Source: an uncultured virus (IMG/VR IMGVR_UViG_2061766007_000740) | Taxonomy: Duplodnaviria; Heunggongvirae; Uroviricota; Caudoviricetes | Virus record (IMG/VR): IMGVR_UViG_2061766007_000740 | Strand: one strand, 5' to 3' | DNA: 34,402 nt | Shown: positions 1 to 30,636 of the stretch, in pieces | How the letters are laid out: every line of letters starts with the position of its first letter | How positions within the stretch are numbered: the first letter of the stretch is position 1 | Notes under the pieces: model-generated | The model's database searches: none | What the model was told of the DNA's origin: nothing | What the model saw: the letters and a program-made list of their open reading frames with translations, nothing else | Program-made: the position numbers and the translations under genes

Positions 1-7
1 CCTGCCG

Positions 8-520
8 ATGATGGACTGGCTGACGGGTATTCCCACCACGCCGGTCTGTCTGGAGAAGATACAGGGCCGCGAGGCGCAGGAGAATGCCGACTTTCAGGGT
101 CTGCGCTTTGAGGACTGGCTGATTATCGAAGCCAATTACCAAGGATACCTCCGGCACAAGGAGATTTCCTTCATCAACGATATCAGCCGCATCCTGTACG
201 GCAAGCGTCTGGAGTTGAGCGCTCCGGAGGCGTACAGTGTCTTTCTCTGGGTCGCGTCGGTCAAGCAGCTGTTCGCCAACCGGTTCCCGCATTTCTTCGT
301 TCCCGCCCCTATCGATGAGAACAAACAGGAGAGCGACCGCGAGGTGTATGATAAGCTGCGTTCGGCGCGTAACTTGCAAATCCGTGCCCTCACCAAAGGC
401 GATATCACCAAGGAGAAGGAGATATACGAGATGGACTGCTGGCGTGCCCTGACCGAACTCGACGCACAGGCAGAGGAGTACAACGAACTGAAACGAATTC
501 AACAGAAAAATGGAAAATAG
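8..520 (+). CDS. Phage hypothetical protein in the morphogenesis module (probably 5'-truncated by the window edge)
   Basis: 170-aa ORF with phage-like codon usage, overlapping the next gene start; located upstream of tail-completion and terminase genes. Confidence 0.6.
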   Translation: MMDWLTGIPTTPVCLEKIQGREAQENADFQGLRFEDWLIIEANYQGYLRHKEISFINDISRILYGKRLELSAPEAYSVFLWVASVKQLFANRFPHFFVPAPIDENKQESDREVYDKLRSARNLQIRALTKGDITKEKEIYEMDCWRALTELDAQAEEYNELKRIQQKNGK

Positions 521-1071
521 AACGACCGAATGGAACCCCGTGGCTTTCTACGAGGGCCTGACCAAGCGCAACAAACTGGCGAAGGCGAAAGGTTTCGTCT
601 TCTGCAANNNNNNNNNNTCTGACCAAGCGCAACAAACTGGCGAAGGCGAAAGGTTTCGTCTTCTGCAAGGTGTCCGGACTGCAAGGCATGGTGGAAGCCG
701 TTGCCAAGATGCAGAGTACCGCCAACTTCGTGATGGTGGCCGATAACGCTGCCGGTTATACGGAACTGGACAACTCACCCCACACCCGCCGCACCAACAC
801 CGTCTTCATCGGTATGCGCCACAAGCTCGGTGACATGACCGCCCGGGCAACCTGCCTGAGCACCATCAAGGAGCTGAACCGGCAGTTCCTCTCCAAACTC
901 ATCATGGAGAAGACCCTGCTGGCGGAGAATGCGCAGTACCTCGACCCGCGGATCAACCTGCAGGAAGCACCGTCGGCACTCATCCCAGGTACTGCCGTCT
1001 GCATGTTCGAGGTAGCGGTCGATACCTACATCGATTTGAGTTATAACGAAAAAGAGTGGGACGATGATTGA
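510..1071 (+). CDS. Putative tail terminator/completion-like protein (split by N gap with duplicated flank)
   Basis: MENRTTEWNPVAFYEGLTKRNKLAK... joins ...VSGLQGMVEAV... once the ~50-bp duplication around the gap at 608-618 is removed; function inferred from size and context. Confidence 0.5.
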
Positions 1072-1342
1072 GTTAACCCAAGAGCAGCTGGAGCAGGTGG
1101 AGAAGCTGTCATCCATCTACATGAAGATTACCGATATCGCATTGGTGATAGAGGTGGATCCTCACGAACTGCGTGCCGCCATCAGCAACGAGTCGAGCGA
1201 GGTCAGCCGGCGCTACCGTCGCGGTAAAGCTACCAGCAAAGCCGAACTGCTCGCCCAGGAGATGCAGCTGGCCAAGATGGGTTCACCATTGTCCCTGGAT
1301 AAGATAAAAGATAACCTGCTCGATATGGAGGACGACGAGTAA
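1064..1342 (+). CDS. Small HTH-like protein upstream of terminase (terminase small subunit candidate)
   Basis: 92 aa, translationally coupled; ITDIALVIEVDPHELR resembles a helix-turn-helix. Confidence 0.5.
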   Translation: MIELTQEQLEQVEKLSSIYMKITDIALVIEVDPHELRAAISNESSEVSRRYRRGKATSKAELLAQEMQLAKMGSPLSLDKIKDNLLDMEDDE

Positions 1343-1343
1343 T

Positions 1344-1976
1344 ATGCCACAAGTCAAGAACATAGAACTGGCGCAGCGGGAGATGTTCACCCCTGCCGAG
1401 GAACTGCTGACGCGATACGATGCGGCGCGGGTGGACCACCTGCTCCGCCTGAGGGATATGTACAACTGGATGCTGTCCAATCCCTCCGAGCGCGACCGCA
1501 AGTTCATCGATACGTTCACCGGCAAGTACGGCATCTGCGAGACGGCTGCCTACTCGGACCTCGCCCTCATCAAGCAACTCATCCCGGCACTCGCTCCGGC
1601 GTCCCGCGAGTTCTACCGCAAGCAGGTGAGCGAGATGCTGCTGGAGACCTACAACATGGCGAAGGCACGCAAGGACACCAAGGCAATGGCAATGGCTGCC
1701 AAGGAACTGGGCAAGGTCAACCGCGTCGATATGGAGGACGAGAAGGCACTGCCCTACGACGATATCGTCATTCAGCCGTTCACCCCATCGTCCGACCCGA
1801 CCATCATCGGACTCAAGGTTATCCCGAATCTGGAGGAGGTCAAGGCACGCCTCCGCAAGCAGATGGCAATAGATAATCCGGACATCGAAGATATAGAGTT
1901 TGAACCCGCCGATTTGGAGGAAGAATCGCTCTTCCCGGAGGAAAAAGAGGAAAATGGCAAAGATATACTTCAATAA
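1344..1976 (+). CDS. Putative terminase small subunit
   Basis: 210-aa helical protein with acidic tail, directly upstream of and overlapping the terminase large subunit. Confidence 0.5.
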   Translation: MPQVKNIELAQREMFTPAEELLTRYDAARVDHLLRLRDMYNWMLSNPSERDRKFIDTFTGKYGICETAAYSDLALIKQLIPALAPASREFYRKQVSEMLLETYNMAKARKDTKAMAMAAKELGKVNRVDMEDEKALPYDDIVIQPFTPSSDPTIIGLKVIPNLEEVKARLRKQMAIDNPDIEDIEFEPADLEEESLFPEEKEENGKDILQ

Positions 1977-3558
1977 GATCCAGCAGCGCGTGATGTTCAT
2001 CGGCGCCAAGACGACGGTCGTTGTCGCCGGTCGCCGTACGGGTAAGACCTACGGCATGGGTGCGCCGTTTGCCTTCCGGAACATGCAGCGGATGCCCGGC
2101 TCTACCGGCGGCATCGTCGTGCCCACTTTCCGGCATGGTCTGACGAACACCTTGCCGGGACTGTTCAGCTGCTGGAAAGCGATGGGTCTGATTGAAGGCG
2201 TCCATTACGTGGTGGGCAAGAAACCGCCCAAAGGCTTCGGTGTGGCGAAGGTCGAACCGCAGGAGTACGAGCATGTGATATCGTTCTACAACGGAAGCCG
2301 AGCCATCCTCATCAGTCAGGACATCGCCGGTAGCTCCAACTCCCTTACGCNNNNNNNNNNCAACTTCGAGAAACTCAAGGACGAGACCCTGCCGGCTAAC
2401 GGCGGTATCCGGGCGTACTTCGGCAAGCACTCGTGCCATCACTCCATCATGATCATGTCCGATATGCCGGTCGGCAACAAAGGCAGTTGGTTCCTCAATT
2501 ACCGCGAGAAGATGAACCATGAGGTCATCGACTGCATCGAAGCGCTTGTGAATAAGGAGTACCAGCTGAAGGAGAAAGTGAAGACGCTGCGCAAAGCCGG
2601 CAAGCCGGTACCCGATTACATCAAGTACCAGCTCCGGAGCAATAACAAGGCGATTAACCAACTGCGTGCCGCTGCCGTCCTCTATGTCGAAGTCTCCACC
2701 ATCGAGAACCTGGAGGTCGTCGGAGTGAACTACATCCGCGACATGAAGCGCGACCTGCCGCCGCTCGTCTTCCAGACTTCCATCCTCTGCCAGCGCATCG
2801 GCATCCTTAAAGACGGCTTCTATAACTCCATGAAGGAGCGGCACAAGTACCACGCCGCCGACAACGATTATCTGCTGTCGCTCGGCTACGGCAAGACCGA
2901 AGCGGAGTACCAGAAACTGCTCAACAGCCAGGCAGACCGCGATGTCAATCCGGACATGCCTATCTGCATCGGCATGGACTACAACGCCAACATCAACTGG
3001 ATTGTAGCAGGACAGGAGAGCAACGGACGACTGAACGTCATCAAGTCCTTCTATGTCAAGTTCGAGCGGAAGATACCGGCGCTCATTGCCGATTTCTGCA
3101 CTTACTACCGCAACCACCGCAAGAAGCAAGTCGTCTTCTACTATGACTCCACGGCGCTCGGATCCAACTACGCCGTCAATAAGGACGACTTCAAGAAAGT
3201 CATCGAGCGGGAGTTCAAATCCCACGGCTGGGCGTGCAAGTCCGTTTATCTCGGACCGCCGATGCGCCACACCGAGAAATACCTGCTCATCAACAGGGGC
3301 TTTGCCGGACAGAACCGACTCACGCCCTACTTCAATATGGATAACAACGAGGCGTTACTCATCGCCATCCAGTCCGCCGAGGTCATGCGAGGCTCGAACG
3401 GTTTCAAGAAGTACAAGGCAGGTGAGAAACTGGCGGAGTCCGAGGAGAACCTGCTGGAGCACCGCACCGACGGTACCGACGCCTTCGATACCCTCTACAT
3501 CGGCATGAATAACAAACCCGTCAAGTTCGCCACTGTCAGCTTGCTTGGCGTAGGATAA
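1954..3558 (+). CDS. terL: Terminase large subunit
   Basis: N-terminal ATPase Walker A VAGRRTGKT; C-terminal RNaseH-like nuclease acidic motifs (IGMDYN, YYDST, TDGTDAFD); start taken at ATG 1954. Confidence 0.9.
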   Translation: MAKIYFNKIQQRVMFIGAKTTVVVAGRRTGKTYGMGAPFAFRNMQRMPGSTGGIVVPTFRHGLTNTLPGLFSCWKAMGLIEGVHYVVGKKPPKGFGVAKVEPQEYEHVISFYNGSRAILISQDIAGSSNSLTXXXXNFEKLKDETLPANGGIRAYFGKHSCHHSIMIMSDMPVGNKGSWFLNYREKMNHEVIDCIEALVNKEYQLKEKVKTLRKAGKPVPDYIKYQLRSNNKAINQLRAAAVLYVEVSTIENLEVVGVNYIRDMKRDLPPLVFQTSILCQRIGILKDGFYNSMKERHKYHAADNDYLLSLGYGKTEAEYQKLLNSQADRDVNPDMPICIGMDYNANINWIVAGQESNGRLNVIKSFYVKFERKIPALIADFCTYYRNHRKKQVVFYYDSTALGSNYAVNKDDFKKVIEREFKSHGWACKSVYLGPPMRHTEKYLLINRGFAGQNRLTPYFNMDNNEALLIAIQSAEVMRGSNGFKKYKAGEKLAESEENLLEHRTDGTDAFDTLYIGMNNKPVKFATVSLLGVG

Positions 3559-3576
3559 AGACACAATATTATAATT

Positions 3577-6500
3577 ATGAATAACGATACCACCGTAGGC
3601 CTGTACATCAACGGCAAACAGGCAGAGAAGACACTGGACATCCTTCAGGAGAAAGCCAATACCCTCGGCAAGCAGCTGGAGGAGGCTGTCCGTCGCGGCG
3701 ATAAGGCTGCGCAGAAGCAACTCAACAAATCCCTCAAGGATGTCAACCAGACCATCAAGCAGATCCAGTCCTCCACCAAGAACGTGGCGGATGTGATGGC
3801 GCGTCTCGATAAGGCGACGCCGCACGAGCNNNNNNNNNNNNNNNNNNNNNNNNNNNNNNNNNNNNNNNNTGGTACTCCGGCATGGGATGCCCATGTGCAG
3901 AAGATTCGCCAAGTCAAAGCAGAGATCGATAAGGTCAACGCCGAGATGAAGGAATCCGAATCGCTGCTCGTCCGGATGCGGAACGGTGTCCAGAACTGGG
4001 GTGCGATGGCCGCCGGTGCGGTAGCTGCTTTCTCCGGTGTCGTGATGNNNNNNNNNNNNNNNNNNNNNNNNNNNNNNNNNNNNNNNNNCATACGCCGAGA
4101 TGCAACAAGAGGAAGCGAATGTCCGCAAGTACACCGGCATGACCGAGGAGGAAGTGAACCACCTCAACGACGCCTTCAAGAAGATGGACACCCGTACCAG
4201 CCGCGAGGAACTGAACAAGCTCGCACAGGAAGCCGGTCGGCTCGGTCTGCAATCCGAGGAGGATGTGTTAGGCTTCGTCAAAGCCGCCGATAANNNNNNN
4301 NNNNNNNNNNNNNNNNNNNNNNNNNNNNNNNNNNNNNNNNNNNNCTGACGCTCTCCAAACTGACAGATATCTTCGGCGATAGGGAGCGCCTTGGCACGGA
4401 GCAATCGCTGCTGGCGGTCGGTTCGGTTATCAATGAGCTGTCGCAGAACTCCACCGCAGCGGCACCCTATCTGGCAGAGTTCGCCCAGCGTCTCGCCGGT
4501 GTTGGCGCTCAAGCCCACATGACCATTCCGGAGATTATGGGCTTCGGTGCCGTGCTCGATAGCCAAGGTCAGAAGCTGGAGATGTCCTCGACGGCGCTCT
4601 CCAAGGTTATCATGAATCTCTTTAAGGACCCGGCAAAGATAGCCAAGGCTACCGGTCTCGCCGTGGAGGAGTTCTCGGAGACCTGCAAACGCAGTACCAA
4701 CGAGGGCTTACTCATGTTGCTCGAACGCTTGCACGAACTGGGTGGTATTGACTCCCTGGCACCGGTGTTCGCTGACATGGGCGAGAACGGTGCTCGTGCT
4801 TCGGCTGTCCTCGCTGCCCTTGCCGGCAATGTGGACATGGTGCGTCAACAGCAGGAAGCCGCCAATGTCGCCTTCAACGAGGCTGTCTCCATCGATAAAG
4901 AGTTTGAGGTGCAGAATACCACCGTACAAGCCGGTCTGGAGAAAGCGCGCAAGGGCTTCACCGAGATGGCGGTCACGCTCGGCAAGGAACTCATGCCTAT
5001 CGTCTCCAAGGTGATATCCTCCACCTCGATGACCATGCGAGTGCTGCTCAAGGTCATTCAGTTCGTCAAGGAGTACCGTGCTGTCATCATCGGCGCTACT
5101 ACGGCACTCGTCGCCTATTACGCTCTGGTTAACATGAAATCGGCATGGAATACGTTCACCGGCGGTATCAAGAAAGCTACGGCAGCGGTTAAGGCGTTTA
5201 ACGCTGCGCTGAAGACACATCCATATGCCGCATTTACAGCAGCTCTATTGGGTGTGGTGGCTGTTATGGCGGCAATCATCAAGAAGCGTAGCGAGATGTC
5301 CCTGCAGGATAAGGTCGTTGCCGACGCGCAGAAGGAGATTAACAAGCAGTATGTCGAGCAGAAGTCGAAGATAGACCTGCTCAATGACACGCTGCACGAT
5401 GAGAAACTGTCGCTCGAGGCCCGAAAGAAGGCGCTGGATGAGTTGAAGTCCATCGTTCCGGACTACCACGCTTCCCTGACGAACGAAGGTAAGTTAATCA
5501 ACGACAACGCAGATGCCATCGATAACTACACCAAGAAGCTCGAAAAGCAGATCCAGATGCAAGTCTATCAGGAGAAACTGATGGAGTTGTACCAAAAGAA
5601 GATGCAGGCAGAAGATTGGCTGTCTGAGAGCGAAGCCGCATTGGAAAAGGCGCAGAACGAGGCTGCTGAACATGCCGGAGAGGTGCAGATGCGTACATCG
5701 ATGGGCGCTGCCGGTCCGACAGGTGGTTACGAGAATTCCTATTCCGTCAATGTCCGTGTCAAGACCGAGAATCTGGAAGGAGCCAAGAAGGAACTGAGTT
5801 CCATCGAGGATGCTATCACCAAGATTAAGGGTAAGATAGGCGATGGCGGTTTGCTCGAAGCACCAACCAAGACCAATACCGTCACTCCGGAGAGCGGTGC
5901 GCCCACCGGAGGCGGTGAGGAGCAAGAGCTGAAGGATAAGCTGAAGGAGTTGGCGGACATCCGGAAGACCATCATGGCGCAGGATAAGATTGCGTACCTG
6001 CAGGGTGTCACGAACTACGAGCAGTACCAACAGGCGCAGCTGGAGACCGAGATAGCCTATCAGAAGAAAGTGATGGAGGTGCACGGCAAAGGCACGACCG
6101 GCTATCTCGAAGCCGAAGCCTCGATGTTGGAGGCACAGAAGAGACTCAAAGAGCACGCCGCCGGGCAGACTATCGAAGCGGAGCAGCAACGCTACTCTGA
6201 TGAGAAGGCGGCGGCGGATCAGCGGTATGCGGACGGGAAAATTAGCGCCAAGGCGTACCAGTTGGAGATGGAGCAGATGGAACTCACCCACCTTCAGAAC
6301 CTCGTCAACATCTACGACGAGGGAAGCAAGGAGCGTCTGAAAGCGCAGGAAAAATACAACCAGACCTCGCTCAAGTATCAGCAGAAGCACGCTCAGGAAG
6401 CCAAGAAGATGCAGGATCAGCTGCAGAAGGAGTACTTCTCCAACGTCTCCGGTGTGACTAACTCCGAGGGCTACGCGGAGGAACGGATGCAGTTGGAGGT

Positions 6501-7477
6501 GGTTCGCGAGTTGATGTTAGCACAAGCCACGGCAGACCAGAAGTTGCAGATTGAGGAGGCCTACCAGCAAGCTCGGTATGAGTTGGCTAAGAAGTATCAC
6601 GATGAGGAAGGCATGTATGCCGTTGACTCTGCTCAGGCATGGAGCGATAAGGTCGCGGAGTTCTTGCAGTCAGAGGGCGCGCAGAAGTTCCAGAAGGCAT
6701 TCAGTACCATGGTAAACGGCATGGGGCAGATATTCTCCGGTCTCACTTCCCTCATTGACGCAGAAACCGACCTGCAAACCGCGCAGATTGAGAAGCGTTA
6801 CCAGAAGGAGATTGACGCAGCGGGCAACAATAAAGACCTTGTGGCTAAACTGGAAGCCGAGAAGGAGGCAGAGATTGCCAAGGTAAAGAATGAGGCTGAG
6901 GAAAAGAAATATGGTATGGAGATTGCATCGGCCATTGCACAAACGGCGGTTGCTGCNNNNNNNNNNNNNNNNNNNNNNNNNNNNNNNNNNNNNNNNNNNN
7001 NNTGCTGCAGCAATGGCAGTGGCAGCCGGAGCAATTCAGATTGCAGCGATAAAGAAACAACACGAGGCTGCGATGGCGCAGGGTTACGCTGCCGGTGGTT
7101 ATACTGCACCGGGTGGTAAGTACCAGCCTGCCGGTATCGTGCACGCCGGAGAGTGGGTAGCCTCGCAGGAACTGCTTGCGAACCCCACCGCCGCCGCTAC
7201 CATCGCCCAACTCGACCAGGCGCAGAAAACGAACACCATAGGGCAGCTATCGAAACCATCGGTATTTGAGGGTAGCAAACCCCGGTATTCAGAGGGTGCA
7301 AATACCGGTATTCGTGATACGCAAACCCCGGGGGTTAATGTCGGCGAGTCCCTCGACCGGCTTAACAAGACGCTCGATAACGGTATCTATGCGGCAACGA
7401 CCATGACCGGCGATAAGGGTATCCTGCGCCAGCAGCGTCGATATGAACAATTAATGCGTAACAAGTCGAAGAAATGA
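3577..7477 (+). CDS. Tail tape measure protein (~1300 aa; frame breaks at N gaps)
   Basis: Long Ala/Glu/Lys-rich coiled-coil ORF pieces 3577-4293, 4100-4348, 4519-7119 and 6890-7477; TP901-type core (EIMGFGAVLDS, ADMGENGARA); C-terminal GYAAGGYT...AGIVHAGEWV. Confidence 0.9.
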
Positions 7478-9330
7478 AAATCTTAGTTAATGGCAAGCAA
7501 GCGGTGATGAAAGAAGGGTCATCGTTTGAGTATCATTCCGAGAACCCGTTGTTCACGGAAGCGGAAGACTATTCGTTTGATATCGAGTTCCCGATGAAAG
7601 ACTGTCCGCAGAACATCCTTATCTTCGGTGCGCTGCACGTGAAAGGTGTGGATATCTCCACCGTCACGTACCCGTGCCGGATCCAGACGGCGTCGTTCGA
7701 TAAGACCGGCATTCTGACCATCACGGAGGTCAACGACGCTGCCGTCAAAGGTCAGTTCCTCGAAGGTATGAGCACCGACCGTTTCAGTACCGGCGGTCTG
7801 GACATGTACATCGACGAGATTGATTTCTCCCTCATCGACGGCACGAACGGCGATTCGTCCTATGTGATGAGCGATGACCACTTTGTCGATTTGCCGGTAT
7901 GGGATAAGGACGAGGATAAGCTTTTCTCTCTCTTCGCGGATTCATTGCCGGTTCTGCGGCATATCTATCTGCACGAGGTGGTCGATTGGATAGCGTTTCA
8001 GTCTGGGATGGATGTAGATTTGTCTGCTATAGAATCGAGCACAGTCTATCAGCGATTGGTGGTCTGCAATACGACGGATCATGTCAAGTATGTATCAGAT
8101 GTGTTTGATACACCGGGCGTAGTGACCGGTGGCTTCTATTTCATGGATATCGAGAAGACATTGCCGCACTGGACGGTTCGGGAATTCTTCCAGGAGTTGG
8201 CGAAGATGTTCACATGCAAGGCTGTGTTCGATGGTAGTCGGAACTCCGTTAAGTTTCTTCCTATTTCTAACCTCATCGGCAGTTCCGGCAATGTTAACAT
8301 CAATGTATTGGATGACTTCGCGGTGGAGACACAAGATAGCGAGGATAAGGTACGCAAGGCGGTTGAGTTCAAATTCCCGGACGACTGCAACCCGAACAAT
8401 GTGAACAGCTGTCCTTGGATATACGACTATATCGAGCATCTGAAGGTGGTTCAGTTGATTACACAGGAGCAATACAATCCGACATGGTTGGCGCAGCACC
8501 CCTATGCGGATAACGTCTGGTATCGCCGAAGCCGTCTCTATGAATGTGTGAGTAACATAGCCGGTGTGTATGGCATCGTTACAGAGATTACCAAGAGGGA
8601 TGATCTGACGCAGTTCGGCAACCAGTTGCACTTCATCAAGTTCGAAGTGCTCAATCAGTTCTGGAACGAGGATGGGGCAGAGGAATTGAAGATGTACCCG
8701 GCTAACTTGGAATGGAAGCGTATCTTGCGGCATCTGAACTATTGGGAAACGATTGGCAGAGACAGCTATGGAGTTCCCGGATATGTCGATACGGAAGCTA
8801 CTTTCGCTAATCCGTATAAGATGCCGGTTGTGTCGGTTGCCAAATATAGCCCTACAGAGCAACTCTTGGATAATCAATGGGTGTGGAGTGCCGGCGAATT
8901 AGTAGAGCAAGGCTCCCCAAAAGCAGAAATCAAAGGTATTGCCTTGGTAATAGTGAACGGGCAGAGCACTTCGGATGGTAGCCATCTGAACACTCGCAAG
9001 TGGGAGCCGCAGATTGGAACGGAGTATGCACAGGAAACTATTACCGCCACGGAGGGAATCGTTCCGGATTACTACCAGGGTATTCAGGAATATCAATATT
9101 CAATGACTCCGGGCATGTGGTCGGTGGTTGGATCCGCTACGCCGGAACCGCCCCAAGTGGACGAGACGAAGCTCTACAGGTACAAGTTCCTTGCGTCCTC
9201 GCTGCCATCCGCCACGGCCATCTATGTCATCAAGGGCAAACGGTATGCCTGTCTCCGTCTTACGGCACACTTCACCGTGGACGGTATGAGTGAACTTATC
9301 GAAGGCGAGTTCTACGAGATTGTCGGCTAA
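7474..9330 (+). CDS. Tail protein (hub/receptor-binding candidate)
   Basis: 618 aa, ATGA-coupled to the tape measure gene; N-terminal ENPLFTEAEDYSFDIEFP resembles Bacteroidetes siphovirus post-TMP tail proteins. Confidence 0.7.
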   Translation: MKILVNGKQAVMKEGSSFEYHSENPLFTEAEDYSFDIEFPMKDCPQNILIFGALHVKGVDISTVTYPCRIQTASFDKTGILTITEVNDAAVKGQFLEGMSTDRFSTGGLDMYIDEIDFSLIDGTNGDSSYVMSDDHFVDLPVWDKDEDKLFSLFADSLPVLRHIYLHEVVDWIAFQSGMDVDLSAIESSTVYQRLVVCNTTDHVKYVSDVFDTPGVVTGGFYFMDIEKTLPHWTVREFFQELAKMFTCKAVFDGSRNSVKFLPISNLIGSSGNVNINVLDDFAVETQDSEDKVRKAVEFKFPDDCNPNNVNSCPWIYDYIEHLKVVQLITQEQYNPTWLAQHPYADNVWYRRSRLYECVSNIAGVYGIVTEITKRDDLTQFGNQLHFIKFEVLNQFWNEDGAEELKMYPANLEWKRILRHLNYWETIGRDSYGVPGYVDTEATFANPYKMPVVSVAKYSPTEQLLDNQWVWSAGELVEQGSPKAEIKGIALVIVNGQSTSDGSHLNTRKWEPQIGTEYAQETITATEGIVPDYYQGIQEYQYSMTPGMWSVVGSATPEPPQVDETKLYRYKFLASSLPSATAIYVIKGKRYACLRLTAHFTVDGMSELIEGEFYEIVG

Positions 9331-10526
9331 TACGCACCTGCCTTATCATTGATACGCGCTATCAGACCATCGTCGATATGGTCTGCATAGCGTGTTGTCA
9401 TACTCAGGTCACTGTGACCGGCTGCGTGCATCACGTCGATATCTGCCACTCCGTCGAGCAGCAAATCATGGATACCCGTGTCCCGGAGTGAATACAACTG
9501 ATACTTTGCCGGCAGGTGCAACGCTTCCCGCATCTTCATCCATTCCTTAGCGAACATCTGACTGTTCTTGGGCCGGTCACCGTATGTCCAGGCGCGATTG
9601 CTGAACAGGTAATCGTTCGGTCCTGCCCCGGCAAGGTACTTCCGGAGCAACCGTTTCAGTCCGTCATCCATGCGTCCGAAGCGCTCCTTACCGTTCTTCG
9701 TTATCTCTCCCGGCATGACGATGCAACTGCGGTCATACCTTATATTATTAACACGTACGCGCGTAGCCTCTACCGGTCGGAGCAGCGCCGTATAGACCAA
9801 CCGGCACATGAGCTGCATCGCCGGATTGTTGGCGGCAAAGTAAGCGTCAATCTGCAAGCGGGTGCTTTCCGGAATGAGTGTGCGCGTCTTCTGCTTGGTG
9901 CGCTTCGGTTTGATGGTCTCAAACGGATTCTCCTTCGCGTAGCACTTATCGATGCACCAGCTGAAGAATGCCCGCCCGAGCTTCAGGTTACTGTTGAACG
10001 CCCGTTCGGAGATGTGTTCCGCATCCTGCGCTTTCTTCTTGCCTACGTTCTTCCGGGCACTTTGTCCGCTCCAGATCCAGTCCAGGAACTGCACGGCCAT
10101 CATCTTCGTGAATAGCGCACAGTTACACTGCGGGTAGTTCGCATCGAGCCATTCCCGGAGGCGTCCGGTGAACGACCGGTAACAGGGGAGCGAGCTGCTC
10201 GACAGCGCACTCTCTTTCTCCCGCATGTACTGGTCGATAATCTGACCTATCGGCACGTACTCGCGCGTGTTCTGCACCTCGCCCATCGGACTCCAGCCGT
10301 TGGCCAGCCGGATGTTCAGATTGCAGATCACACTCTGACAGTACGCTTTGAACTCGGTCAGGTTCTGGTAACGCTTGCGGATGCGGTTCATCTTCATCGT
10401 CCGGCGCTGCATCTCGCCGGTCAAGCCGTTCAGGAAATAATACTCGATGACATACCCGTGAGTAGTGTACCGACATAGCTTCGCCGGTACATAAGGGGTA
10501 AACTCTAACGTGTGAGACTTAGACAT
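9327..10526 (-). CDS. int: Tyrosine recombinase / phage integrase
   Basis: Catalytic motifs LLRPVE (R), TKNGKER (K), YSLRDT (H/YxxR), AGHSDLSMTTRY (H,Y); adjacent to tRNA-derived att cores. Confidence 0.95.
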   Translation of the reverse strand: MSKSHTLEFTPYVPAKLCRYTTHGYVIEYYFLNGLTGEMQRRTMKMNRIRKRYQNLTEFKAYCQSVICNLNIRLANGWSPMGEVQNTREYVPIGQIIDQYMREKESALSSSSLPCYRSFTGRLREWLDANYPQCNCALFTKMMAVQFLDWIWSGQSARKNVGKKKAQDAEHISERAFNSNLKLGRAFFSWCIDKCYAKENPFETIKPKRTKQKTRTLIPESTRLQIDAYFAANNPAMQLMCRLVYTALLRPVEATRVRVNNIRYDRSCIVMPGEITKNGKERFGRMDDGLKRLLRKYLAGAGPNDYLFSNRAWTYGDRPKNSQMFAKEWMKMREALHLPAKYQLYSLRDTGIHDLLLDGVADIDVMHAAGHSDLSMTTRYADHIDDGLIARINDKAGAY

Positions 10527-10578
10527 TTTTTTTTCTTTCCAATTCTCGCGAGAACCGGAAAGAAGCCCATCGGCACGG

Positions 10579-10694
10579 GTTTAGTATGGTAAACCACCGG
10601 GTTTGGTATGGTCGAATAAAGTTTGGTATGGTCGGAATCAAGTTTGGTATGGTGAGAAGATGAGTTTGGTATTCTCACCGCGCACTTTGGTATT
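10579..10694. repeat. Six phased (G)TTTGGTAT repeats, ~21-bp period, upstream of integrase
   Basis: Copies start at 10579, 10601, 10621, 10642, 10664 and 10685. Confidence 0.85.
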
Positions 10695-10704
10695 CTCGAC
10701 ATCC

Positions 10705-10910
10705 GTGCCGGTTTTGTGCCGATTTTTATTATTATGATTAAGGGCAGCCTTGTATTTGCTGCCCTTGTGGTGCCAACGGGAATCGAACCAGTGATCCTAA
10801 GGGTGGGCGATTCGGTTGGCAATCACATTGGCTTCCTCCCTATTCTCATAGGTTTAACAATGTTCTTGTTTTGGCAACCCGGACGACTGTGTGCCGTCCT
10901 CGTGCCGATT
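10705..10910 (-). other. attP-like site 1 (tRNA-Phe-like 3' fragment, hairpin, GTGCCG arm pairs)
   Basis: Core 10768-10794 reads TCACTGGTTCGATTCCCGTTGGCACCA on the minus strand; hairpin 10740-10766; GTGCCG pairs at 10705/10716 and 10891/10902. Confidence 0.8.
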
Positions 10911-10960
10911 GAGGATAGGTAGGATCATCCTCGGCCATCGTCACACCACTTAAAACTGCT

Positions 10961-11167
10961 GTGCCGATTTTGTGCCGATTTTTTGTCTTATAATTAAGGG
11001 CAGGCTTGTATTTGCCTGCCCTGTGGTGCCACCGAGAATCGAACTAGGGATGCTATCGGCGGCAGGTTGGGCAGTGAGACAGGATGAAACCTGCCTTATT
11101 CTCAATAGATTATAATTTCAATGTTCACGCACTCACACGGCATTTATGTGCCGTATTCGTGCCGATT
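10961..11167 (-). other. attP-like site 2 (tRNA-Phe-like 3' fragment, hairpin, GTGCCG arm pairs)
   Basis: Core 11024-11050 reads TCCCTAGTTCGATTCTCGGTGGCACCA on the minus strand; hairpin 10997-11022; GTGCCG pairs at 10961/10972 and 11148/11159. Confidence 0.8.
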
Positions 11168-11169
11168 TG

Positions 11170-11206
11170 TATAGTCCCGCGTGCATAATGTGCGCGCGGG
11201 ACTATA
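11170..11206 (-). terminator. 16-bp hairpin at the end of the repressor operon
   Basis: TATAGTCCCGCGTGCA / TGCGCGCGGGACTATA overlapping the stop of ORF 11202-11477; U-tract is weak. Confidence 0.55.
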
Positions 11207-11477
11207 GTGGGTCGTACTCTTTACCTAAATCAAGCTTAACTTGATCAATATTGACACCGTGTTTGGAGTCTGCGTAGTCGATATCGTGGAGGATGGTATA
11301 GAGAACATCTCCATACTGATTTTCAATATCGATATCGGATAGAAAGACCTGCCCATCTATTCGTGCAATGAGGCTCTGAACAAACGCTCTGCGGTCTTTT
11401 TCGGCTACGCGTTTGTTGATCATGTCCTTAATGTACTTGCAAAGTACTATTTCGTCAAGTGTCATTTCGGTAAGCAT
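11202..11477 (-). CDS. Hypothetical protein (repressor operon)
   Basis: 91 aa, AT-rich, overlaps the upstream gene. Confidence 0.6.
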   Translation of the reverse strand: MLTEMTLDEIVLCKYIKDMINKRVAEKDRRAFVQSLIARIDGQVFLSDIDIENQYGDVLYTILHDIDYADSKHGVNIDQVKLDLGKEYDPL

Positions 11478-11902
11478 AACTGTAGGAATTCGCGTGCGTT
11501 ATTCAGGTGCCGACGCTCCAGATATCCGGGGTCAGCGTAACCAGTCCGGAAGATGTACACCAGGTTCTTCGACTTGCGTGCTGCCGTCGTCTCCTCGTCG
11601 ATGGTGTATATCTCTGACTTGGCGCCGGTATCGAGGATGCCCAGCAGCGCATCGACGGATCGCAGTGCTTCCTCCGGAGAGTGTCCGAGCACGAGGGAGA
11701 ACGTCAGGGGGTTGAACTTACTGGCGCACTTCAGACTGAAGGCGTAGTAGCTTCCGTCCTGGGCGTAAAGCATTTTGACATACTGGTCGGTGATACCGCC
11801 GACATACTCGGTCTTGTACTGACCCTGCGAGACGGGTTTGATCTCTGCGTGCATGACGCTGATGAGCGACATGGCCACAAGCAATAACAGCGTTTTTTTC
11901 AT
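11462..11902 (-). CDS. Exported protein with signal peptide (lysogenic conversion / exclusion candidate)
   Basis: MKKTLLLLVAMSLISVMHA|EIK type I signal peptide; starts 3 nt after the repressor stop. Confidence 0.7.
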   Translation of the reverse strand: MKKTLLLLVAMSLISVMHAEIKPVSQGQYKTEYVGGITDQYVKMLYAQDGSYYAFSLKCASKFNPLTFSLVLGHSPEEALRSVDALLGILDTGAKSEIYTIDEETTAARKSKNLVYIFRTGYADPGYLERRHLNNAREFLQLCLPK

Positions 11903-11905
11903 AGG

Positions 11906-12238
11906 CTATTCTTTTTTGGGTTTCGATTTGGCTTCGGCTTTGTAGCGCCGGAGGAGTTCGGTGAGGTTCTCAATCATCTCATCTTTCTTCCGGCACTCCT
12001 CGCAATCGGGGTTGACACTGTCCTGCGGGATGTACTTTTCGGGGTAGGTAACGACATCCACAACGGGGATATTAAATTTTTCACAGATTTGTGAAATGGT
12101 ACTGAACTTCAATTCGACCGTTCGGTTGAACCAGTTACTAACGGCAGCATCGGTAACACCCATCGCCTGAGCGACGTTTTTGTGCAAAATACCTCTTTCG
12201 TTGAGGACTGCACCCAGATTTTTTTGTAAGTCAATCAT
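11906..12238 (-). CDS. XRE-family HTH repressor (CI-like)
   Basis: LNERGILHKNVAQAMGVTDAAVSNWFN is a classic XRE HTH; divergent from a Cro-like gene. Confidence 0.85.
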   Translation of the reverse strand: MIDLQKNLGAVLNERGILHKNVAQAMGVTDAAVSNWFNRTVELKFSTISQICEKFNIPVVDVVTYPEKYIPQDSVNPDCEECRKKDEMIENLTELLRRYKAEAKSKPKKE

Positions 12239-12367
12239 AGTACAAAATTAGTAATTTTTTTGTTAATAATATGTTTATAAGTTTGAAGAAAATTTCACTT
12301 ATTCACACATAATTTACACGGGTTTGTTAAATAAAATGCAAAAAAATTAACTTTTTTGTGAAAAAAA

Positions 12368-12399
12368 TTTGGTCAATTCAAAAAAATGTAGTACCTTTG
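12368..12399 (+). promoter_or_regulatory. Bacteroidetes primary-sigma promoter (lytic, rightward)
   Basis: TTTG (12368) - 20 nt - TACCTTTG (12392). Confidence 0.8.
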
Positions 12400-12425
12400 C
12401 GCCGTGAAAGTTAATTTTGCGGTTG

Positions 12426-16643: not shown

Positions 16644-17211
16644 ACAGAGGTTAGGCTCCGAGTAAGGAGGAGCAAGATATAAGGCTGCCGGTGGTTGTGC
16701 CTCGAGTAAGGAGAGGCAGATATGAGGAAGCACGCGGATAAAACAGAGTGAACGTGGCTCTACGTAATACGACCAACACGACCGCGTGTCGTATTGAAAT
16801 GTGGGACCGCCACCGGATGGGTGCTAACAGCCATGGTTGGATTANNNNNNNNNNAATAAAACAGAGTGAACGTGGCTCTATGTAATATCGGCAACACGAC
16901 CGCGTGTCGTACTGAAATGTGGGACCGCCACCGGATGGGTGCTAACAGCCATGGTTGGATTANNNNNNNNNNGGAGAAAAGGTATACTTTTCCCTATAGA
17001 AAAGGTATACTTTTCCCTATAGANNNNNNNNNNAAGCCCTGCGCCATGGTTCGCGTCCGCCCATCGGAGAGGCTACGGAATATCCCCCTGAGAAAAGGTA
17101 TACTTTTCCCTATAGAAAAGGTATACTTTTCCCTATAGAAAAGGTATACTTTTCCTCGGGGGTAGCAAAAAAGGGTCTCTCAGCAGCCGAAAGGCCCGGA
17201 CTCGCCTCTGT
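16644..17211 (+). ncRNA. Predicted large structured RNA, copy B (interrupted by N gaps and variant duplication)
   Basis: Stems ACAGAGG/CCTCTGT, GGCTGC/GCAGCC, CCGGTGGT/GCCACCGG, CACGCGG/CCGCGTG, GATGGG/CCCATC, GAGAGGC/GTCTCTC; two GAGTAAGGA-loop hairpins. Confidence 0.7.
17084..17172. repeat. 23-bp tandem palindromic repeat (AGAAAAGGTATACTTTTCCCTAT) x~3 within CCCCC/GGGGG ends
   Basis: Seen directly; a further fragment lies between gaps at 16973-17023. Confidence 0.9.
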
Positions 17212-21995: not shown

Positions 21996-22005
21996 GTACC
22001 TAAAC

Positions 22006-22056
22006 CATCCTAAAAACATCCTATCGACATCCTAAAAACATCCTATTTGCATCCTA
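22006..22056. repeat. Five CATCCTA repeats at an exact 11-bp period
   Basis: Starts at 22006, 22017, 22028, 22039 and 22050. Confidence 0.9.
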
Positions 22057-25748: not shown

Positions 25749-25864
25749 AACCCCTATGGGTTGGATACATAAACCCCCCGGGGGGTAAGGTATACTTTTC
25801 CCTATAGAAAAGGTATACTTTTCCCTATAGAAAAGGTATACTTTTCCTCGGGGGTAGCAAAAAA
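25749..25864. repeat. Second locus of the 23-bp palindromic repeat element
   Basis: 25787-25864 is identical to 17095-17172 (78 bp). Confidence 0.9.
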
Positions 25865-29113: not shown

Positions 29114-29173
29114 ATAGTAAACCCCATAGTAAACTTATAGTAAACTTATAGTAAACTTATAGTAAACTTATAG
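29114..29173. repeat. 11-bp tandem repeat ATAGTAAACTT (~5 copies)
   Basis: ATAG starts at 29114, 29126, 29137, 29148, 29159 and 29170. Confidence 0.9.
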
Positions 29174-29524
29174 ACCTCTCCCGAACTCATAGCCTATCAA
29201 GCGAACTCAATCGTCTCGTCGAGACCTCGTCGTTCATCAGCGTGAACCTCTCTCGATGTCAACTCTCTCTTTCCGTCCGAACCTCTCTGCATATTCCGCT
29301 CAAACGAAACGCGCTCGGTTCGTCCAATCCGCAGGCAGTGCGGGGGCTCGATGGAGGCAAACAAGGGGAATTTTTTCACAAATTCCCCCTGTGACCCCCT
29401 GATTTTTCTGACTTCTCAAAATGGAAAGTGTGGAAGAAATTATATTTTTCTATCGTACGTTCCGGTTCAGAAATGCCAATTTTCGGTAAAATCAGCAAGT
29501 TAAGTGTATTTTTTTGCCCGAAAA

Positions 29525-29556
29525 TTTGCACAGTTCAAAAAAAAGCAGTACCTTTG
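29525..29556 (+). promoter_or_regulatory. Bacteroidetes promoter
   Basis: TTTG - 20 nt - TACCTTTG. Confidence 0.8.
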
Positions 29557-29647
29557 CACCGTCTAAGTTAAAATAAAGCAGGGCGACTGAGAGAAGTTGC
29601 CGCAAGCGAGCGGTATTTTTTATGCTCAGTCTATACCAAAATTGTAG

Positions 29648-30436: not shown

Positions 30437-30544
30437 TATCTAAGTAACTATAAATAAGAAAGTTAGACACAAAGAAACAAGATTTTTCGCAAAACCGGCT
30501 TTCTAGAATTTTTTCTCCTTCTTACAGGGAAAATGCGGGCGAAA

Positions 30545-30576
30545 CTTGCAAATGTCAAAAAAAAGTCGTACCTTTG
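30545..30576 (+). promoter_or_regulatory. Bacteroidetes promoter
   Basis: CTTG - 20 nt - TACCTTTG. Confidence 0.7.
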
Positions 30577-30636
30577 CACCCGATTCTGAATCACTGCCCA
30601 ATCTTAAAGATAGTACATTTTTAAGAATTGGCGGTT

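What the first reader, a model, noticed from the sequence alone, without database searches (positions are those of the whole stretch)
10705..11167. Two complete attP sites in tandem, matched to two different tRNA-Phe-like alleles
Seen: a 256-bp-period unit occurs twice. Each unit has a GTGCCG pair (11 bp apart), a hairpin, a tRNA 3' fragment 63 bp after the first arm site, and a second GTGCCG pair 123-124 bp after the core start. The T-arms covary (ACTGG-TTCGATT-CCCGT vs CCTAG-TTCGATT-CTCGG: two compensatory changes, same T.C mismatch) and both end TGGCACCA. The hairpins also keep their pairing (AAGGGCAGC/GCTGCCCTT vs AGGGCAGGC/GCCTGCCCT), while spacer DNA has diverged. There are no N gaps here. 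Known: tyrosine integrases use tRNA 3' ends as att cores with flanking arm repeats; TGGCACCA fits Bacteroidetes tRNA-Phe from memory. Inference: a single integrase is supplied with two maintained attP alleles, letting the phage lysogenize hosts with different tRNA-Phe sequences, i.e. a host-range device at the integration step.
Basis: partly seen in the sequence, partly recalled or inferred. Interest (0 to 1): 0.85.

Follow-up and report, generated by a model that had tools for sequence, protein, structure and literature searches.

The report
Phage with two tandem attachment sites
A temperate phage of cattle-rumen Bacteroidales carries two complete integration sites side by side, each copying the end of a different natural version of its hosts' phenylalanine tRNA gene, which probably lets one phage settle in two groups of host species.

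Summary
Window 10705-11167 is a 256-bp unit present twice. Each unit has two GTGCCG pairs, a stable stem-loop and, on the minus strand, the last 27 nt of a tRNA-Phe(GAA) gene. Both sides are phage DNA: integrase 9327-10526(-), repressor, tape measure, head protease. The window is therefore the excised (attP) form.

Both cores match real genes. In 151 genomes of the nearest host genus, 27 carry the core-1 allele, 23 the core-2 allele and 35 a third.

A two-unit prophage in genome G001 sits in a core-1-type tRNA-Phe, with unit 2 carried inside next to attR. Relatives integrated through core 2 also exist: the G480 prophage attR and three attL contigs.

Single-unit relatives exist for each core, with integrases 78-87% identical.

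The tandem occurs in four independent assemblies and in contigs of four runs. Between the window and a relative with 81% integrase identity, the arms, core and a 13-nt box of unit 2 are 91-100% identical. The spacers are 37-39% identical.

Use of core 2 by a two-unit phage was not seen.

Verdict: a real, phage-borne tandem attP, most likely dual-specificity (about 0.6). It is a new variant of the tRNA-targeting tyrosine-integrase attP.

The parts
9327..10526 (-). Tyrosine integrase, 399 aa
   Evidence: Pfam Phage_integrase E 8e-16. PHROG integrase E 1e-25. Relatives 78-99% identical sit next to tRNA-Phe cores.
10533..10564 (.). Perfect-spaced 16-nt palindrome just upstream of the integrase start codon. 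It is conserved in all Phe-clade relatives. Possible operator or translational hairpin for int.
   Evidence: I3, 88% complementary, no gap. The same sequence block is seen in L038, L017, L016 and G001.
10579..10703 (.). Variable iteron cassette, about 7 copies of a 12-mer with period about 21, between the integrase-proximal arm pair and the int promoter region
   Evidence: It is absent from L038, whose integrase is 99% identical. It is skipped in contigs of runs X3 and X4 (joints of 130-139 bp). Other iterons replace it in L017/G001 and in L016.
10705..10721 (+). Arm pair A1 (integrase-proximal arm-type sites of unit 1)
   Evidence: Conserved 18/19 against L017. It lies beside attL in the G001 lysogen.
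10737..10767 (-). Stem-loop 1, directly after the tRNA 3' end. It replaces the host terminator in attL.
   Evidence: Folds at -15.9 kcal/mol, z -5.0. It follows the rebuilt tRNA-Phe in G001 attL. It has no T-run.
10767..10796 (-). Core 1: tRNA-Phe positions 47-73 plus up to 3 nt, about 30 nt identical to attB of allele-1 hosts
   Evidence: Present at attL and attR of the G001 prophage. Allele 1 is found in 27 of 86 genus genomes that gave a match.
10891..10907 (+). Arm pair A2 (distal arm-type sites of unit 1), followed by a short palindrome
   Evidence: Conserved 27/29 against L017. Orthologous to the distal pair of the single-unit phage L016.
10908..10960 (.). Linker joining unit 1 to unit 2. 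The 28 nt next to arm B1 are conserved. An inverted copy of the 13-nt box abuts arm A2.
   Evidence: 27/28 identical to L017 for the left part and 14/24 for the rest. An IMG/VR scan for the conserved part found only the L017 contig.
10961..10977 (+). Arm pair B1 (proximal arm-type sites of unit 2)
   Evidence: 19/19 identical to L017.
10993..11023 (-). Stem-loop 2, after core 2
   Evidence: Folds at -19.1 kcal/mol, z -5.2. A like stem-loop follows full allele-2 tRNA-Phe genes in attL contigs L040, L049 and L050, and in the scar L035.
11023..11050 (-). Core 2: tRNA-Phe positions 47-73 plus 1 nt, 28 nt identical to allele-2 host genes
   Evidence: Exact in full tRNA-Phe genes of G289, G024, G338 and G332. 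Allele 2 is in 23 of 86 genus genomes that gave a match. 28/28 conserved in L017. At attR of the G480 prophage.
11148..11164 (+). Arm pair B2 (distal arm-type sites of unit 2), followed by a short palindrome
   Evidence: 29/32 against L017. Same block as the distal pair of the single-unit core-2 phages L041 and L048, and as the G480 attR.
11170..11206 (.). 16-nt-arm palindrome at the end of the last rightward gene block. It marks the boundary of the integration module.
   Evidence: I2, 94% complementary. Conserved in L038, L041, L048 and G480, and in G002, which has a different integration module.

Best explanation
The window is the excised genome of a temperate tailed phage of rumen Bacteroidales. 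Upstream of its tyrosine integrase gene it carries two complete attP sites in tandem.

Each unit has the build of the single attP found in close relatives: a distal pair of GTGCCG arm-type sites, about 110 nt of spacer with a conserved 13-nt box, a core, a stem-loop, and a proximal pair of arm sites. The core copies positions 47-73 of the host's single-copy tRNA-Phe(GAA) gene.

The two cores copy two natural alleles of that gene, which differ only in the T-stem. Both alleles occur in different species of one host genus.

Proposed working:
- The integrase binds the arm pairs through its N-terminal part and recombines whichever core is identical to the tRNA-Phe gene of the infected cell.
- Integration through core 1 leaves unit 2 inside the prophage next to attR. 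This state was seen.
- Integration through core 2 would leave unit 1 inside, next to attL and int. This state was not seen.
- The phage-borne core plus stem-loop rebuilds the 3' part of the tRNA gene with a matching T-stem.
- Strand exchange is most likely in the 7-nt T-loop, which both alleles share. A mismatched core would then give a tRNA with only two good T-stem pairs, which is why a matched core is needed for each allele.

The tandem most likely arose by illegitimate or unequal recombination between a core-1 phage and a core-2 phage, and has been kept.

Shown: the structure, the allele matches, use of core 1 by a two-unit phage, use of core 2 by relatives, and the conservation footprint.
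Inferred: use of core 2 by the two-unit phage, arm binding by the integrase, the crossover position, and the origin.
For: Phage identity and attP form. Integrase, cI-type HTH repressor, tape measure, head protease and primase are present, with phage genes on both sides of the units.

Core 1 in use. In G001 a full tRNA-Phe(GAA) is followed by stem-loop 1, an arm pair and an integrase (85% identical at protein level; the gene 80% at DNA level). On another contig the prophage end carries unit 2, arm pair A2, core 1 and then a host terminator.

Core 2 is a real allele. It is exact in 4 full tRNA-Phe genes with native terminators. Manual tally, which examined 151 genomes of which 86 gave a match: 27 allele 1, 23 allele 2, 35 a third allele, 1 variant. 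Positions 1-48 are identical between alleles.

Core 2 in use by relatives.
- G480:C15 holds a prophage collinear with the window. Its attR is a unit-2-type arm plus core 2 plus a host terminator.
- L040, L049 and L050 are attL junctions of an allele-2 tRNA-Phe with integrases 78% identical.
- L041 and L048 are single-unit core-2 attPs, and L016 is a single-unit core-1 attP.
- L035 is an attL scar.

One integrase type for both cores. The Phe clade is one supported group (100/100) in which the att types are interspersed. Only 5 positions separate core-2-only integrases from the others, four of them in the first 38 residues.

Maintenance. For window against L017, unit 2 arms are 29/32 and 19/19 identical, the box 13/13, the core 28/28 and the stem-loop 23/27, while the spacers are 10/27 and 17/44. 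Unit 1 shows the same pattern.

Arm sites co-vary with the integrase. The G002 module has another integrase (30% identity), another tRNA core and another arm motif in the same layout. The 62-65% identity relatives keep the arm motif but carry other tRNA cores.

Both host alleles occur in the probable source sample. Run X1 has host-terminator sequence joined to both cores, at depth 79 and 193 against 10-14 for the phage.

Precedent. For mycobacteriophage Ms6, changing the attP core retargets the same integrase to another tRNA-Ala gene, one mismatch blocks integration, and the T-loop is the likely exchange site (PMC1762012, abstract and section headings read).
Against: No two-unit phage was found integrated through core 2.
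- The genome-contig scan for core 2 joined to stem-loop 2 gave only G001 (internal copy) and the scar L035.
- IMG/VR gave only L017.
- The G480 prophage lacks its attL end, and no integrase was found in that 86%-complete genome with this query.

The spacers are so unlike (26-48% identity) that they may have been swapped rather than diverged. The footprint could then partly reflect mosaic recombination at conserved blocks rather than purifying selection.

Single-unit variants occur beside two-unit ones (L016; L041/L048; the joint 10574 to 10958 in run X5). The tandem is therefore easily lost or not needed.

The stem-loops lack a T-run, so their role as terminators is inferred.

Arm binding and the crossover position are untested.
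Confidence: 0.6

Rival explanations
1. Unit 2 is a passenger relic. The tandem arose when a core-1 phage and a core-2 phage recombined. Only the integrase-proximal unit 1 is used, and unit 2 is carried along and will decay or be deleted.
For: The only two-unit prophage seen used core 1. Single-unit forms of either type are common among relatives (among 8 Phe-clade metagenome loci there is 1 two-unit attP and 3 single-unit attPs, plus 4 attL ends that cannot show a distal unit). Run X5 holds a variant joined from the int promoter region straight to unit 2. The flank upstream of unit 2 matches core-2-only phages, while the int end matches core-1 types. That fits a recombinant origin.
Against: A relic should decay like the spacers. 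Instead core 2 is 28/28, arm B1 19/19 and the box 13/13 identical between phages whose spacers are 37-39% identical and whose integrases are 81% identical. The tandem persists, in the same order, in lineages spread across the integrase clade.
Confidence: 0.28
2. It is a seam between two mobile elements stacked at one tRNA gene (tandem accretion). Unit 2 would be the stump of a second element in the host chromosome.
For: tRNA 3' fragments next to integrase genes are often such seams. Earlier notes of this scan on other genomes reached that verdict.
Against: The window has phage genes on both sides and no host DNA. In the G001 lysogen unit 2 lies on the phage side of attR, not the host side. The two cores are different alleles, whereas stacked elements share one core. 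There is no cargo between the units, only 256 bp.
Confidence: 0.04
3. It is an assembly chimera of two phage strains, one with each core.
For: Both single-unit types exist in rumen metagenomes. Assemblers break at the shared cores (unitigs ending at the cores).
Against: The same order and spacing occur in the window, L038, L017 and G001:C24. Contigs of run X3 (805 nt) and run X5 (623 nt), from other studies, run through both cores.
Confidence: 0.02

Closest known systems
Mycobacteriophage Ms6 attP/tRNA-Ala system with engineered cores (PMC1762012; abstract and section headings read)
   Same: A tyrosine integrase targets the T-loop to 3' end of a tRNA gene. Full core identity is needed. Changing the attP core retargets the same integrase to another tRNA allele or gene.
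   Different: There the second core was made in the laboratory and sat on a separate vector. Here two natural cores sit in tandem on one wild phage genome, each with its own arm sites and stem-loop.
Lambda/L5-type attP of heterobivalent tyrosine integrases (recalled, not taken from a call)
   Same: A core flanked on both sides by repeated arm-type sites. The integrase gene lies next to attP. The tRNA 3' end is rebuilt after integration, as for L5.
   Different: Those phages have one core per genome. Here the whole attP is present twice with different cores. Arm binding by this integrase is untested.
Tandem accretion of elements at tRNA genes (CIME/ICE arrays, stacked islands and satellites). 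Recalled, and noted in earlier findings of this scan.
   Same: Several tRNA 3' fragments in a row next to an integrase gene.
   Different: Those arrays are chromosomal, share one core and separate whole elements. Here the array is on the phage, travels with it, has two different alleles and holds no cargo.
Bacteroides mobilizable element NBU2, which uses two tRNA-Ser genes (recalled, not checked here)
   Same: A Bacteroidota tyrosine integrase with more than one tRNA target.
   Different: There one attP serves two identical attB sites in one genome. Here two attPs serve two alleles found in different host species.

Membership tests
attP of a tRNA-targeting tyrosine integrase (lambda/L5 type) | Adjacent gene encodes a tyrosine recombinase | tested here: met
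   PF00589 E 8e-16. PHROG integrase. R, K, H/R and Y motif columns are invariant in 6 aligned relatives (assignment of catalytic roles is from recall).
attP of a tRNA-targeting tyrosine integrase (lambda/L5 type) | Core identical to the attB inside a host gene | tested here: met
   Core 1 matches the G001 tRNA-Phe over about 30 nt. Core 2 matches 4 full tRNA-Phe genes over 28 nt.
attP of a tRNA-targeting tyrosine integrase (lambda/L5 type) | attL and attR junctions in lysogens | tested here: met
   Core 1: G001 attL and attR. Core 2: G480 attR and attL in L040, L049 and L050. These are relatives, not the two-unit phage itself.
attP of a tRNA-targeting tyrosine integrase (lambda/L5 type) | Repeated arm-type sites on both sides of the core, bound by the integrase N-terminal domain | tested here: inconclusive
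   The sites are present (4 pairs against 0.01 expected). They are conserved and change together with the integrase module in G002. Binding cannot be tested here. The first 90 residues match no Pfam family.
T-loop sublocation class of tRNA integration sites (Williams 2002; recalled, seen only as a title cited in the listing) | Identity block runs from the 5' T-stem to the tRNA 3' end, with crossover in the 7-nt T-loop | tested here: inconclusive
   The identity block spans tRNA positions 47-73, so that part is met. The crossover position is not testable with these tools.
Tandem accretion of elements at one tRNA gene | Repeated copies of the same core bound separate elements in a chromosome | tested here: not met
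   The cores differ. The units are 256 bp apart without cargo. The array is phage-borne in both the excised and the integrated state.
Dual-specificity (two-allele) attP array | Each unit recombines with its own attB allele in the same phage | not testable with these tools
   Only core 1 use was seen for a two-unit phage. No attL through core 2 that carries unit 1 was found.

The most novel reading that the evidence does not exclude
A wild phage keeps an array of allele-specific attP cassettes served by one integrase. It can therefore lysogenize host species whose single-copy tRNA-Phe genes differ in the T-stem, rebuilding a matched tRNA in each. Lysogenic host range would then be set by a swappable 256-bp cassette rather than by the integrase. 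Cassettes for further alleles, such as the third allele of this genus, could be gained the same way.
Probability: 0.5. Interest if true: 0.78.

Novelty: new variant of a known kind. Interest (0 to 1): 0.68.

Why it matters
Integration-site specificity is usually treated as one integrase, one attP, one attB. Here natural variation shows the core, not the integrase, tracking host tRNA alleles, and one phage lineage carrying two cores at once.

If both work, this is a simple natural way to widen lysogenic host range across species in a dense community such as the rumen. It also marks which host groups exchange this phage.

It offers a ready-made pair of orthogonal attP/attB sites for one Bacteroidales integrase, useful for genetic tools in gut and rumen Bacteroidota.

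It bears on host prediction from att sites as well: a phage may point to more than one host allele.

Tried and rejected
- The window's own assembly is not held, so its own host context could not be read.
- The phage collection of GenBank records has no match to 9327-11500.
- Rfam gave only three chance-level matches, none of them to the units.
- The consensus terminator scan does not call the two stem-loops.
- Second tRNA-Phe copies in G435, G271 and G411 are contig-end duplicates or second loci with native terminators, not prophage ends. The weak integrase relatives in G271 and G435 (35-45% identity) were not followed.
- An IMG/VR scan for the conserved linker found only the L017 contig.
- An IMG/VR scan with the 91-aa ORF next to the units gave only 16-residue chance hits.
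80 loci of at least 108 were read, and they held no hybrid core and no further tandem of different cores.
- Of the 41 metagenome integrase loci, only the 14 with at least 62% identity were examined. The 27 more distant ones were left out.
- Literature searches (passages read) found only engineered double-attP constructs and unrelated uses of the words. No natural tandem attP turned up in the library searched, which lacks most subscription journals.
- The scan's own notes hold nothing on this genome.
Their positions rest instead.
- Runs are held as contigs only, so read-level junction counts could not be made.

Full report
**What is there**

Window 10705-11167 holds a 256-bp unit twice. Positions 10705-10815 and 10961-11071 are 80% identical.

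Each unit starts with a pair of GTGCCG sites spaced 11 bp start to start, and has a second pair 186-187 bp further on. The four pairs (10705, 10891, 10961, 11148) all lie on one strand. They are far beyond chance: 4 found, 0.01 expected, and 0 of 100 shuffles reached 4.

Between the pairs of each unit, reading the minus strand, lie the last 27 nt of a tRNA and then a GC-rich stem-loop. The stem-loops fold at -15.9 and -19.1 kcal/mol, z about -5. ARAGORN calls no tRNA in the window because only 3' parts are present.

**Context**

- Integrase: the ORF 9327-10526 on the minus strand is a tyrosine integrase. Its start codon lies about 180 bp from unit 1.
- Other side of the units: two small ORFs and a cI-type HTH repressor (11906-12238).
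- Phage genes elsewhere in the window: tape measure, head maturation protease, primase and a DNA methylase.
- Form: phage DNA lies on both sides, so the window shows the excised, attP form of a temperate phage.
- Host and habitat: the window's own assembly is not held. The nearest genome, G001, is an uncultured Bacteroidales MAG (title seen). Public runs that hold the stretch are mostly labelled bovine gut or gut metagenomes.

**Core 1 is a working att core**

G001 holds a related prophage whose integrase is 85% identical at protein level.

- One contig has a full tRNA-Phe(GAA). Its 3' end equals core 1, and it is followed by stem-loop 1, an arm pair and the integrase. This is attL.
- Another contig has the other prophage end: unit 2 complete, then arm pair A2, the unit-1 spacer, core 1 and a host terminator. 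This is attR.

So a two-unit phage integrated through core 1 and carries unit 2 along inside the prophage. The identity between attP and attB spans tRNA positions 47-73 plus up to three bases.

**Core 2 is a real allele of the same gene**

- Among 401 genomes of the host family, the 25-nt core-2 pattern is exact in 5. Those are G001's internal copy and four genomes of the same genus. It has one mismatch in 6 genomes of other genera.
- All 10 of the non-G001 places are full tRNA-Phe(GAA) genes. They have native terminators and no prophage.
- A degenerate pattern run over 151 genomes of the genus matched in 86. By my manual tally of the table, 27 carry the core-1 allele, 23 the core-2 allele, 35 a third allele and 1 a variant.
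- The other 65 genomes gave no match. Many are incomplete.
- The alleles differ only in the T-stem, and positions 1-48 are identical.
- Where found, the gene is single-copy in 81 of 86 genomes. The extra copies are explained by prophages or contig ends.

**Core 2 is used by relatives**

- G480:C15 holds a prophage collinear with the window over window 11022-34402 and 1-6596.
- Its end is a unit-2-type arm (arm pair, short palindrome, conserved block, box), followed by core 2 and the host's own terminator. This is an attR at core 2.
- Its attL end is cut off by the contig start, and the same genome also holds the empty site.
- Metagenome contigs L040, L049 and L050 are attL junctions: allele-2 tRNA-Phe, a stem-loop, an arm pair, then an integrase 78% identical, 149 nt from the T-loop.
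- L041 and L048 are single-unit core-2 attPs. L016 is a single-unit core-1 attP, and L051 is an attL at core 1.
- L035 is a full allele-2 tRNA followed by a stem-loop and a degenerate arm pair, then host genes. It is a scar of an old integration.

**One integrase type serves both cores**

- The 11 Phe-targeting integrases form one supported clade (100/100). Inside it, two-unit, core-1 and core-2 types are interspersed and unresolved.
- Only 5 alignment positions separate the four core-2-only integrases from the six others. Four of the five lie in the first 38 residues, next to the att DNA, which suggests linkage rather than specificity.
- More distant relatives (62-65% identity) keep the same arm motif and layout but carry other tRNA cores.
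- G002 has the same phage backbone with a 30%-identical integrase. It has another tRNA core and another arm motif in the same layout.
- The arm motif thus changes with the integrase. That fits arm-type binding sites.

**The tandem is real and recurrent**

- Core 2 is distal and core 1 is next to int in the window, in L038 (integrase 99% identical), in the G001 prophage and in L017 (81%).
- Logan contigs of run X3 (805 nt) and run X5 (623 nt), from other studies, run through both cores.
- Runs X1 (the probable source) and X4 have unitigs reaching exactly from core to core.
- In X1 both cores also join host terminators, and core 1 joins the tRNA body. Depth there is 79 and 193 against 10-14 for the phage.
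- Hosts of both alleles therefore live in the sample that probably gave the window.

**Is unit 2 maintained?**

Identity between the window and L017, by part:

| Part | Unit 2 | Unit 1 |
|---|---|---|
| Distal arm pair plus palindrome | 29/32 | 27/29 |
| Proximal arm pair | 19/19 | 18/19 |
| 13-nt box | 13/13 | 9/13 |
| Core | 28/28 | 28/28 |
| Stem-loop | 23/27 | 27/27 |
| Spacers | 10/27 and 17/44 | 14/29 and 11/43 |

A relic would be expected to decay like its spacers.

The caveat is that spacers this unlike may have been replaced by recombination rather than worn down. The footprint is therefore good evidence, not proof.

**How it most likely works**

By analogy with the single-unit relatives, the integrase is taken to assemble on the arm pairs of the unit whose core matches the cell's tRNA-Phe gene.

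- The phage core plus stem-loop then replaces the gene's 3' part and its terminator.
- The two alleles share the 9 nt around the T-loop and the 9 nt of the acceptor end. They differ at four T-stem positions.
- If exchange is in the T-loop, a wrong core would leave a T-stem with only two Watson-Crick pairs in a single-copy gene. T-loop exchange is what the abstract of PMC1762012 suggests for Ms6.
- In that study one mismatch in the 26-nt core blocked integration, and changing the core retargeted the same integrase.
- A matched core per allele is therefore needed, and carrying two gives access to both host groups: 50 of the 86 typed genomes, instead of 27 or 23.
- No hybrid core was seen among the 92 places, or among the 80 IMG/VR loci read of at least 108.

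**Origin**

- Unit 1 and the int end resemble core-1 phages such as L016.
- The flank and distal arm pair of unit 2 are the same block as in the core-2 phages L041 and L048. Its spacer resembles the G480 attR.
- A 28-nt linker block is shared by the window and L017.
- This fits one illegitimate or unequal crossover between a core-2 phage and a core-1 phage, followed by spread.
- Loss by recombination between the repeated arms would give back single-unit forms. Run X5 holds such a variant.

**What is missing**

No two-unit phage was seen integrated through core 2. Arm binding, the crossover point and the terminator role of the stem-loops (which have no T-run) are all inferred.

**Novelty**

Searches of the paper library for natural tandem, dual, second, duplicated or multiple attP found only engineered constructs. 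The library lacks most subscription journals.

The parts are classic. A phage-borne tandem of complete attPs with different tRNA alleles is a new variant of a known kind.

**Scores**

- Interest: 0.68.
- Confidence in the dual-specificity reading: 0.6.
- Confidence in the relic reading: 0.28.

Noticed in passing
window 10579-10703: A cassette of about 7 short iterons (period about 21) lies between arm pair A1 and the int promoter region, and it is hypervariable. It is absent in L038 although the integrase is 99% identical. Contigs of runs X3 and X4 skip it. Unrelated iterons replace it in L017/G001 (4 copies of an 8-mer) and in L016 (two other repeat sets). Its function is unknown. It may hold binding sites for a regulator or an excision factor.
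   Followed up: partly
window 10533-10564: A 16-nt-arm palindrome with no spacer sits directly upstream of the integrase start codon. It is conserved in all Phe-clade relatives read. It may control int expression.
   Followed up: no
window 16975-17023, 17091-17155, 25787-25847: A 23-bp unit is repeated in tandem, 100% identical, at three places (2.1, 2.8 and 2.7 copies). Perfect copies 9 kb apart suggest a regulatory or binding motif.
   Followed up: no
window 29114-29173 and 22002-22045: There are 11-bp tandem repeats, 5.4 copies at 93% match and 4 copies at 78% match.
   Followed up: no
L002 (G002:C1:17940-21156): A phage sharing 39% of the window's words has the same backbone and the same boundary palindrome but a wholly different integration module. 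Its integrase is 30% identical, and it has another tRNA core, another arm motif and a canonical terminator after the core. This is module swapping at a fixed boundary.
   Followed up: partly
L006 (G024:C17) and L005 (G289:C13), about 60-130 nt downstream of tRNA-Phe: A conserved short block follows the native terminator in both genomes. In L006 a second copy of the last 20 nt of the tRNA follows about 100 nt downstream. This looks like the scar of another small element at the same gene.
   Followed up: no
L035 (ONQO01000038.1), reverse strand about 2450-2600: A full allele-2 tRNA-Phe is followed by a phage-type stem-loop and a degenerate arm pair, then host genes. The host keeps the phage-supplied tRNA end after losing the prophage.
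   Followed up: partly
window 12361-12403, 29521-29560, 30542-30592: Short stretches match the promoter region upstream of a host tRNA-Phe gene at 84-91% identity. They are probably phage promoters of the host's own type.
   Followed up: no
window 10908-10925 and 10840-10852: An inverted copy of the 13-nt box abuts arm pair A2 in the linker. Copies of the box therefore flank that arm pair as an inverted repeat about 70 bp apart. The repeat is perfect in L038.
   Followed up: no
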